Shown here in pieces: positions 13,249 through 14,407 of a stretch of DNA of 14,407 nucleotides. Source of the stretch: a virus (Duplodnaviria; Heunggongvirae; Uroviricota; Caudoviricetes). The first letter of the stretch is position 1. Each line of letters begins with the position of its first letter. A program made the position numbers and the translations under genes. The notes beneath the pieces are model-generated. The model was given only the letters and a program-made list of their open reading frames with translations. It had not been told where the DNA came from and searched no databases. The DNA lies in IMG/VR virus record IMGVR_UViG_2874915312_000003, positions 1-14,407 of that record, one strand, 5' to 3'.

Positions 13249-13256
13249 TGAAGTGG

Positions 13257-14096
13257 TCAACAAAAACTGGCCACCGAGTTAGAGTTTTTCCAGTATCGAT
13301 TTTCCGATTCGTTTGGGGGTAACCCACCGTTATATTCGTGCGGTCTTAGTGCGCTGTAATATCCAACGATATAGTCCGTTATGGCGTGAGCTGCCTCGCT
13401 GAAGCTTACGTAACCCACCACCGGCATCCATTCGTTCTTCAGACTCCTGAAGAAGCGTTCCATTGGGCTGTTATCCCAGCAGTTTCCGCGCCGGCTCATA
13501 CTCTGTCTGATCTGGTATCGCCACAATAACTGCCGGAACTGCCTGCTCGTATAATGACTGCCCTGATCGCTGTGGAACATCACCCCGCCGGGCTTACCAC
13601 GGGTTTCCCATGCCATTTCCAGCGCTTTCATGGTGAGCCTGCTGTCCGGCGAGAACGACATGGCCCAGCCCACTGGTTTTCTTGCGAACAGGTCGAGAAC
13701 AACGGCGAGGTACGCCCAGCGCTTACCCGTCCAGATATAGGTCACATCACCGCACCACACCTGATTTGGCTCGGTCACGGCGAACTGCCTTTCAAGGTAG
13801 TTAGGGATAGCAACATGTTCATGACCACCACGTTTATACCGGTGAGTCGGCTGCTGACAGCTGACCAGCCCCAGCTCTTTCATGAGCCTGCCAGCAAGCC
13901 AGCGTCCCATCTGGTAGCCTCTCCGGGTTGCCATTGTGGCGATGCTTCTTGCTCCGGCCGAACCGTGGCTGATGCCATGTAGCTCAAGTACCTGACTACG
14001 TAATACAGCCCGTCTGCCGTCTGGTTTTTCAGGACGGTTTTTCCAGTATCTGTAGCTGCTGCGATGAACCCCGAACACATGGCAGAGTGTGACCAC
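13257..14096 (-). CDS. IS911 orfB (transposase catalytic part)
   Basis: 279-aa ORF with IS3-family DDE-region motifs (WCGDVTYIW...[10 protein letters not shown]...NSPMERFF). Confidence 0.8.
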
Positions 14097-14122
14097 AGGA
14101 TAATGCGCTCTGAGTTTCCCGA

Positions 14123-14375
14123 TTATCGAGAACTGTTCAGGGAGTCTGACATCAAGAGCGCGGTAGCCTTTTTTAATATTTCATTCTCCATTTCAATGCG
14201 TTGTAGCTTTTTCCTGAGCTCACGGATTTCAATTTGTTCCGGGGTAATGGGGGAGGCTTTTGGTGTTTTGCCCTGACGCTCATCACGCAGTTGTTTGACC
14301 CATCTTGTCATTGTGGAAAGGCCAACATCCATAGCTTTGGCGGCATCTGCCACCGTGTATTTCTGGTCAACAACC
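14123..14375 (-). pseudogene. IS911 orfA truncated at its 5' end by IS600
   Basis: ...[37 protein letters not shown]... The first 10 codons of track ORF 14123..14407 ([10 protein letters not shown]) are read from the IS600 terminal repeat. Confidence 0.75.
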
Positions 14376-14407
14376 TGAGGTGTACTGGCAATAGCGGACA
14401 CTACCAT
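14376..14407 (-). mobile_element. Terminal 32 bp of a second IS600 copy (continues beyond the window)
   Basis: 14376-14407 is identical to 4795-4826, the orfB-proximal end of the complete IS600. Same orientation. Confidence 0.8.

What the first reader, a model, noticed from the sequence alone, without database searches (positions are those of the whole stretch)
13249..14407. Nested insertion: IS600 inside IS911 orfA, and two direct-repeat IS600 copies 8.3 kb apart
The last 32 bp of the window are identical to the orfB-proximal end of the complete IS600 at 4795-4826. This disrupts IS911 orfA, so this IS911 copy cannot make OrfAB transposase. IS911 itself interrupts an unidentified phage gene. 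The two IS600 ends are in the same orientation and bracket Q, the nin genes, hok and all three IS1 copies.
Basis: seen in the sequence. Interest (0 to 1): 0.35.

Follow-up and report, generated by a model that had tools for sequence, protein, structure and literature searches.

The report
IS600–IS911 deletion joint in Shigella prophage
The window ends where a complete IS600 insertion sequence abuts a beheaded IS911 in a decayed Shigella flexneri prophage; the joint is the scar of an IS-mediated 5.9-kb deletion, not a neat IS-within-IS insertion, and it is an ordinary example of known Shigella genome decay.

Summary
Window 14376-14407 is identical to 4795-4826, the orfB-proximal end of a complete 1264-bp IS600 (4795-6058, 3-bp duplication CTG). 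Window 13249-14375 is 1127 bp of the 1250-bp IS911.

The window is 100% identical over 13.5 kb to the Shigella flexneri 89-141 chromosome (CP026803.1). There the 32 bp continue into a full 1263-bp IS600 in the same orientation, 8,317 bp from the first copy.

The "nested insertion" reading fails:
- Beyond the second IS600 lies the chromosomal gene mpaA, not the missing 123 bp of IS911.
- The flanks of this IS600 (TAA / GGT) are not a duplication.
- S. flexneri J17B has IS600 at the same mpaA site with a TAA/TAA duplication. It then has 5,886 bp, ending in the first 123 bp of a complete IS911, that are absent here.

The joint is therefore a deletion endpoint. It arose by recombination between two IS600 copies or by intramolecular IS600 transposition.

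"Cannot make OrfAB" is overstated. An ATG in the IS600 end is fused in frame to orfA codon 18, giving a 383-aa chimeric OrfAB frame. The IS911 left end and its promoter are gone.

This is known biology of low interest.

The parts
13249..14375 (-). IS911 remnant, 1127 of 1250 bp. It runs from the right inverted repeat (TGAAGTGGTCAAC... at 13249) to the third base of orfA codon 17. The left inverted repeat, the promoter region and orfA codons 1-17 (123 bp) are missing.
   Evidence: It is 98.6-99.0% identical to RefSeq 'IS3-like element IS911' copies and the match ends at 14375. It matches the NCBIfam IS3 transposase model at 302 bits.
13257..14096 (-). IS911 orfB frame (279 codons from the first start codon); the DDE integrase part of the transposase.
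14168..14174 (-). IS911 programmed -1 frameshift motif A AAA AAG, intact.
14123..14407 (-). Chimeric orfA of 94 codons. Its ATG and 10 further codons come from the IS600 end ([11 protein letters not shown]; the last codon, CAG, takes its third base from IS911). They are fused in frame to IS911 orfA codons 18-100.
   Evidence: This exact 94-aa sequence is on one 4,481,548-bp contig only; a one-residue variant is in S. flexneri K-227.
14376..14407 (-). The first 32 bp of the orfB-proximal (right) end of the second IS600 copy. The full copy continues beyond the window.
   Evidence: Identical to 4795-4826. It continues as a 1263-bp IS600 in L013 5934-7196.
4795..6058 (-). Complete IS600 copy 1 (1264 bp), a simple insertion into the 5' part of an ORF6N-domain prophage gene.
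4792..4794 (.). Left copy of the 3-bp target-site duplication CTG of IS600 copy 1.
6059..6061 (.). Right copy of the 3-bp target-site duplication CTG of IS600 copy 1.
12903..13248 (-). Prophage fragment between IS1 and IS911. It holds codons 45-118 of a 118-aa conserved phage gene of unknown function (phrog_1621; coding 13026-13247, stop 13023-13025) plus downstream sequence.
12135..12902 (+). IS1 copy 3, a simple insertion with the 9-bp duplication GATATTTTT.
7901..8668 (+). IS1 copy 1, with the 9-bp duplication TACTAACAG.
8698..9465 (+). IS1 copy 2, with the 8-bp duplication CGCAATTC, 29 bp from copy 1.

Best explanation
The end of the window is a deletion joint in an IS-riddled remnant of a lambdoid prophage on the Shigella flexneri chromosome. 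By gene order the prophage sits where Rac does, next to ttcA.

A full-length IS600 is anchored at an mpaA insertion site that other S. flexneri strains share. It directly abuts IS911 at orfA codon 17/18. The 5.9 kb that separate these two points in other strains are gone. That segment holds the 5' part of mpaA, a NAD-binding-domain gene (probably ymjC), an IS110-family element, a Peptidase_S15/DLH gene (probably ycjY), a truncated LysR-family gene (probably pgrR), an inverted 857-bp IS600 remnant and the first 123 bp of IS911.

Shown:
- the structure
- the missing duplication around the second IS600
- the ancestral-type arrangement in other strains

Inferred, the route to the deletion:
- Favoured: a second IS600 inserted into IS911 orfA at GGT. 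RecA-type recombination between it and the directly repeated mpaA::IS600 then removed the interval and left one hybrid IS600.
- Alternative: the right end of mpaA::IS600 attacked IS911 orfA on the same molecule, producing an adjacent deletion by intramolecular transposition. This gives the same product.

Consequences:
- The IS911 remnant has only one end, so it cannot move as a unit.
- Its transposase frame survives as an IS600-IS911 chimera of unknown expression.
- The two direct IS600 copies now bracket 8.3 kb of prophage DNA (Q-like gene, ybcO, DUF1367 gene, hok, three IS1). They are a substrate for a further recombinational deletion.
For: - Source: the window is 100.000% identical over 13,502 bp to L013 (CP026803.1). 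That record is S. flexneri 89-141, serotype Y (PMC9455713).
- The IS600 at L013 5934-7196 is full length, with a 100-aa orfA and a 272-aa orfB.
- Its left flank is ...CCAGATTAA in mpaA and its right flank is GGTTGTTGACCAG in IS911 orfA. There is no duplication.
- Upstream genes are ycjX, ycjF, tyrR, tpx, ycjG and the mpaA remnant, collinear with E. coli.
- J17B (L012, CP100042) has IS600 at the identical mpaA site with a TAA/TAA duplication. L013 7197-8669 resumes at L012 7974, so L012 2088-7973 (5,886 bp) is missing from 89-141.
- An independent draft assembly, S. flexneri K-227 (L004), has the same joint at 99.96% identity over 8.8 kb.
- In the IS600 at this joint (89-141 and K-227), position 1026 differs from every other IS600 copy compared. 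Position 980 differs from the mpaA copies of J17B and 71-2783 but matches window IS600 copy 1. The left 725 bp equal the J17B mpaA copy. This is a weak hint of a hybrid IS600.
- All other IS in the window (IS600 copy 1 and three IS1) have clean duplications, so the missing duplication here is meaningful.
- IS-mediated deletion between homologous IS copies is a recognised process in Shigella (PMC7373316).
Against: - The window itself holds only 32 bp of the second IS600. Everything beyond rests on the assumption that the window comes from CP026803.1 or a genome with the same structure. The support is 100% identity over 13.5 kb and the presence of the exact chimeric 94-aa ORF on that one contig only.
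- The polarity of events (J17B-type ancestral, 89-141-type derived) is inferred from the intact TAA duplication and from parsimony, not from a rooted phylogeny.
- Two SNPs are too few to separate recombination from one-step intramolecular transposition or from gene conversion.
- No intermediate with both IS911::IS600 joints was found.
Confidence: 0.85

Rival explanations
1. Simple nested insertion. IS600 transposed into IS911 orfA, is flanked by a 3-bp duplication, and the rest of IS911 and of the phage gene lie beyond it.
For: The IS911 homology stops exactly at the terminal TG of IS600, as expected for a transposition joint. Such an insertion may have been a transient intermediate.
Against: In the genome identical to the window, and in K-227, the far side of IS600 is mpaA with flank TAA. 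IS911 sequence and a GGT repeat are not there.
Confidence: 0.03
2. One-step adjacent deletion. The resident mpaA::IS600 carried out intramolecular transposition with its right end into IS911 orfA, deleting the 5.9 kb in between. No second IS600 copy was ever present.
For: It gives the same end product: an IS end joined precisely to a new target with no duplication. From my own knowledge, not tested here, intramolecular deletions by IS3-family transposases are documented for IS911.
Against: The SNPs at IS600 positions 980 and 1026 differ from the mpaA copies in two other strains, which mildly favours a hybrid element. IS3-family elements mostly move by copy-out/paste-in through circles, which gives simple insertions.
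Confidence: 0.35
3. Assembly artefact. The join across the 1.26-kb IS600 repeat in CP026803.1 is a mis-assembly, and the true neighbour of the IS911/IS600 joint is elsewhere.
For: IS600 is multi-copy in Shigella, and repeats of this size can mislead assemblers.
Against: Two independent assemblies, 89-141 (complete) and K-227 (draft), give the same mpaA-IS600-IS911 order. Gene order on both sides is collinear with E. coli and with J17B.
Confidence: 0.04

Closest known systems
IS911 (IS3 family, IS3 group; first described in Shigella dysenteriae)
   Same: 98.6-99% nucleotide identity over 1127 bp, the right inverted repeat, the orfA/orfB layout, the A AAA AAG frameshift site and a DDE orfB.
   Different: It is truncated. 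The left inverted repeat, its promoter and orfA codons 1-17 are missing, there is no target duplication, and orfA is fused to 11 codons supplied by IS600.
IS600 (IS3 family; Shigella and EIEC)
   Same: Copy 1 is a complete 1264-bp element, 99.3% identical to annotated IS600, with a 3-bp duplication. Copy 2 (beyond the window) is 1263 bp and 99.7% identical to copy 1.
   Different: Copy 2 has mismatched flanks (TAA / GGT), so it marks a rearrangement and not a fresh insertion.
IS-mediated deletion and genome reduction in Shigella (Hawkey et al. 2020, PMC7373316)
   Same: Expanded IS1, IS600 and IS911 disrupt genes and promote deletions between homologous copies. This locus shows at least two successive IS-bounded deletions that removed the left arm of the prophage and flanking chromosome.
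   Different: Nothing in kind. Only the particular joint (mpaA::IS600 to IS911 orfA codon 17/18) is specific. It was found only in S. flexneri 89-141 and K-227, and not in 5,426 complete E. coli genomes.
Composite transposon or IS-flanked amplifiable unit
   Same: Two IS600 copies in direct orientation bracket 8.3 kb.
   Different: The outer flanks (CTG at 4792-4794; TTA beyond copy 2, the complement of the L013 TAA flank) are not a duplication. Copy 1 is an independent simple insertion. There is no evidence that the unit ever moved or amplified.

Membership tests
IS911 | At least 95% nucleotide identity to IS911 | tested here: met
   98.6-99.0% over window 13249-14375 against RefSeq-annotated IS911 copies.
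IS911 | Both terminal inverted repeats (5'-TG...CA-3') present | tested here: not met
   Only the right repeat is present, at 13249. Homology ends at 14375, 123 bp short of the left end. The left end is not on the far side of IS600 in L013.
IS911 | orfA and orfB joined by the -1 frameshift motif A AAA AAG | tested here: met
   The motif is at 14168-14174 (minus strand). The chimeric OrfAB frame is 383 aa.
IS911 | 3-bp target-site duplication | tested here: not met
   The right-end flank is ACC (13246-13248) and the other end is missing. Even the complete copy at this site in J17B has unmatched flanks (ACC on the left-repeat side, GGT on the right-repeat side), with an IS600 remnant on one side and the phage gene on the other.
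IS600 | At least 95% identity over the full length of about 1264 bp, with orfA and orfB | tested here: met
   Copy 1 is 99.3% identical over 1264 bp. Copy 2 in L013 is 1263 bp and 99.7% identical to copy 1, with a 100-aa and a 272-aa ORF. Only 32 bp of copy 2 lie in the window.
IS600 | 3-bp target-site duplication | tested here: met
   Copy 1 has CTG/CTG, with the empty site seen in L002. For copy 2 the feature is NOT met: the flanks are TAA and GGT.
Nested IS insertion (IS600 inside IS911) | Both parts of the host IS flank the guest IS, with a duplication of the host target | tested here: not met
   The far flank of IS600 copy 2 is mpaA, the 5' 123 bp of IS911 are not on the far side of IS600 copy 2, and there is no GGT repeat.
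Composite transposon | Target duplication flanking the whole IS-segment-IS unit | tested here: not met
   The outer flanks are CTG (4792-4794) and TTA (the complement of L013 5931-5933).

The most novel reading that the evidence does not exclude
The IS600 right end supplies an ATG that is fused in frame to IS911 orfA codon 18. If read-through from IS600 orfB expresses it, the cell would make a chimeric OrfA/OrfAB that keeps the helix-turn-helix, the leucine zipper, the frameshift site and the DDE domain. Such a protein could act in trans on the many other IS911 copies, as a variant transposase or regulator. No promoter-like site was found in the 500 bp around the joint, and no Shine-Dalgarno sequence is evident before the ATG.
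Probability: 0.05. Interest if true: 0.25.

Novelty: already known. Interest (0 to 1): 0.08.

Why it matters
It matters little beyond correct annotation.
- It shows that a 32-bp IS end at a window edge can be read correctly as an IS, while the "nested insertion" inference drawn from it is wrong.
- It documents one strain-specific step in the well-known IS-driven erosion of Shigella prophages and neighbouring chromosome: loss of mpaA-pgrR and of the left arm of the prophage.
- The direct IS600 pair predicts a further 9.6-kb recombinational deletion (one IS600 plus the 8.3-kb interval). That deletion could serve as a lineage marker.

Tried and rejected
- The IS911/IS600 joint was sought as an exact 35-mer in IMG/VR viral contigs and in GTDB species-representative genomes. 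There were no matches.
- A 108-bp query across the joint was run against 5,426 complete E. coli genomes. No record covers at least 80% of it.
- An exact look-up of the 94-aa chimeric ORF in the look-up of encoding contigs found nothing. The cluster look-up later showed it on one contig.
That sequence is not in the protein collection.
- CP026803.1 is not in the annotated collections.
- At first I misread the left flank of IS600 copy 1 and suspected a missing duplication. Re-reading and alignment to the empty site showed a clean CTG duplication.
- BLAST hits in EHEC O26 genomes seemed to share 19 bp of flank with IS600 copy 1. Alignment showed the flanks are only loosely similar, so there is no shared joint.
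- SNP comparison of IS600 copies could not settle recombination against one-step deletion. Only two sites were informative.
- A promoter scan around the joint found nothing.

Full report
**1. The observation**

The repeat is real.
- The last 32 bases of the window (14376-14407) are identical to 4795-4826, in direct orientation.
- The bases before the two copies differ, so the match starts exactly at an element terminus.

Window 4795-6058 is a complete 1264-bp IS600.
- It is 99.3% identical to copies annotated in RefSeq as "IS3-like element IS600 family transposase".
- orfA (5692-5994) and orfB (4838-5656) lie on the minus strand. Both match the NCBIfam IS3 transposase model.
- Its ends are TGAGGTG... 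and ...CCTCA.
- Alignment with an uninterrupted relative (E. coli FDAARGOS_944, L002) shows a simple insertion into the 5' part of an ORF6N-domain gene, with a CTG duplication at 4792-4794 and 6059-6061.

Window 13249-14375 is IS911.
- It is 98.6-99.0% identical to annotated copies, and homology stops at 14375.
- 1127 of 1250 bp are present. They run from the right inverted repeat to the third base of orfA codon 17.

**2. Where the window comes from and what lies beyond it**

An exact look-up of the 58-aa ORF in the phage fragment next to IS911, and of the 221-aa phage protein, retrieved Shigella contigs.
- One locus, L013, comes from CP026803.1. It is 100.000% identical to window 906-14407 over 13,502 bp and extends 7.1 kb past the window end.
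- CP026803.1 is the chromosome of Shigella flexneri 89-141, serotype Y (PMC9455713).
- The chimeric 94-aa ORF at the window end occurs, as an exact sequence, on one contig only, of 4,481,548 bp. That is the length of this record.

In L013 the 32 bp continue into a full IS600.
- It lies at L013 5934-7196 and is 1263 bp long.
- It has three mismatches and one 1-bp gap relative to copy 1.
- It carries orfA of 100 aa and orfB of 272 aa.
- The two IS600 copies are direct repeats separated by 8,317 bp.

**3. Why it is not a nested insertion**

Beyond the second IS600 there is no IS911 sequence.
- Its left end abuts ...GGAAACCAGATTAA, inside the chromosomal gene mpaA (Peptidase_M14). Further out lie ycjG, tpx, tyrR, ycjF and ycjX.
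- The two flanks are TAA and GGT, so there is no 3-bp duplication.
- The draft genome of S. flexneri K-227 (L004) shows the same structure at 99.96% identity over 8.8 kb.

S. flexneri J17B (CP100042, L012) carries IS600 at the same mpaA position with a clean TAA/TAA duplication. It then has 5,886 bp that 89-141 lacks:
- the 5' part of mpaA
- a NAD-binding-domain gene (probably ymjC)
- an IS110-family element
- a Peptidase_S15/DLH gene (probably ycjY)
- a truncated LysR-family gene (probably pgrR)
- an 857-bp IS600 remnant in the opposite orientation
- the first 123 bp of a complete IS911

That IS911 sits at the same phage-gene joint as in the window. S. flexneri 71-2783 (CP024470, L014) has the same complete IS911 flanked by the inverted IS600 remnant. 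The L009 draft assembly matches J17B almost base for base and may not be independent.

Gene order is collinear throughout, so the difference is a deletion and not an inversion.

Even in J17B the complete IS911 lacks a duplication. On its left-repeat side lies IS600-internal sequence (flank ACC), and on its right-repeat side the phage gene (flank GGT). It therefore marks an older deletion that removed the left arm of the prophage and the adjacent chromosome. In E. coli relatives with an intact prophage, that arm holds int, recE, the immunity genes and the replication genes, next to ttcA (L008/L011).

**4. Mechanism**

Shown: the right terminus of a full IS600 that sits at the shared mpaA site is joined precisely to IS911 orfA at G|GT of codons 17/18, and 5.9 kb have been lost.

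Inferred: there are two routes to this product.
- (a) A second IS600 inserted into IS911 orfA. Homologous recombination between the two direct IS600 copies then removed the interval.
- (b) A one-step intramolecular transposition of the mpaA copy produced an adjacent deletion.

The evidence between them is thin.
- The IS600 at the joint equals the J17B mpaA copy over its first 725 bp.
- At position 980 it differs from the mpaA copies of J17B and 71-2783 but matches window copy 1. At position 1026 it differs from every other copy compared.
- This slightly favours a hybrid element, but two SNPs cannot decide, and gene conversion among IS copies is common.
- I put (a) at about 0.5 and (b) at about 0.35. 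Both fall within the deletion explanation (0.85).

**5. Consequences for IS911**

The native orfA start, its first 17 codons, the left inverted repeat and the promoter it carries are gone. With one end only, the remnant cannot transpose as a unit.

The statement that OrfAB cannot be made is too strong.
- The IS600 end contains an ATG at window 14407-14405 (minus strand). Its frame runs through the joint into orfA codon 18.
- This gives [11 protein letters not shown]+VVDQKY..., a 94-aa chimeric OrfA that keeps the helix-turn-helix region.
- The A AAA AAG slip site at 14168-14174 is intact, so there is also a 383-aa chimeric OrfAB frame.
- A 383-residue gene with HTH_Tnp_1 and rve domains is called at this place in CP026803.1.
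- A consensus scan found no promoter-like site within 500 bp of the joint, and I see no Shine-Dalgarno sequence before the ATG. Expression is unproven and would depend on read-through from IS600.

**6. Context**

The window is the right part of a decayed lambdoid prophage. On the minus strand, from high to low coordinates, it holds:
- the 118-aa gene cut by IS911 (codons 45-118 kept)
- a DUF4014 gene cut by IS1
- an HNH gene
- a 221-aa gene
- a DUF551 remnant
- hok
- two IS1 copies 29 bp apart
- a DUF1367 gene
- ybcO
- a DUF1133/Q-like gene
- IS600
- the ORF6N-domain gene
- four tRNA genes
- a holin gene
- tail-fibre genes

All three IS1 copies and IS600 copy 1 have proper duplications. This makes the lack of one at the IS911 and IS600-copy-2 joints informative.

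**7. Comparison with what is known, and verdict**

IS1, IS600 and IS911 are among the five IS expanded in all Shigella species. Deletion between homologous IS copies is an established route of Shigella genome reduction (PMC7373316).

The elements are known, the process is known, and the joint is a strain-level variant.
- It is absent from 5,426 complete E. coli genomes.
- It was found in S. flexneri 89-141 and K-227 only.
- There is no sign that the IS600-bracketed 8.3 kb is a composite transposon, because the outer flanks CTG and TTA do not match.

Interest is low. The value of the check is the correction from "nested insertion" to "IS-mediated deletion joint".

Noticed in passing
window 2615-3473: The holin gene (3258-3473, minus strand) is followed directly by a 216-aa ORF (2615-3265) that matches the C-terminal part of tail-fibre proteins (phrog_454). 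Next come a tail-fibre assembly gene (2067-2612), a tail-fibre N-terminal gene (775-2043) and another tail-fibre-like ORF (201-824). The lysozyme, Rz, terminase, head and tail genes seen in relatives (L008, L011) are missing. This is another deletion joint, here with no IS at the junction.
   Followed up: partly
L012 6998-7990 (S. flexneri J17B) and L014 7011-7989: In strains without the 5.9-kb deletion, the complete IS911 at this phage site abuts an inverted 857-bp IS600 remnant that truncates a LysR-family gene (probably pgrR). There IS911 cuts IS600, the reverse of the nesting proposed for the window. The IS911 flanks (ACC / GGT) again do not match, which marks an older deletion of the prophage left arm.
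   Followed up: partly
window 7901-9465: Two IS1 copies lie in the same orientation only 29 bp apart, each with its own target duplication (9 bp TACTAACAG; 8 bp CGCAATTC). They are independent insertions into the short interval between the DUF1367 gene and the hok region.
   Followed up: yes
L012 802-2087 and L009 806-2091: The mpaA::IS600 copy in J17B carries a 23-bp insertion in orfB that splits the reading frame. The mpaA copy of 71-2783 and the joint copy of 89-141 lack it.
   Followed up: partly
window 3766-4076: Four tRNA genes (Gly-TCC, Thr-TGT, Arg-TCT and a CAT-anticodon tRNA that ARAGORN calls Met and RefSeq annotates as Ile in a relative) lie between the ORF6N gene and the holin gene. 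This is the position where lambdoid and Stx phages often carry tRNA genes.
   Followed up: no
window 14050-14120 region, alignment A1 columns 1001-1070: Ten of the twelve differences between this IS911 remnant and the E. coli EC28 copy cluster within about 70 bp at the 3' end of orfA. This suggests a mosaic or gene-converted patch between IS911 variants.
   Followed up: no
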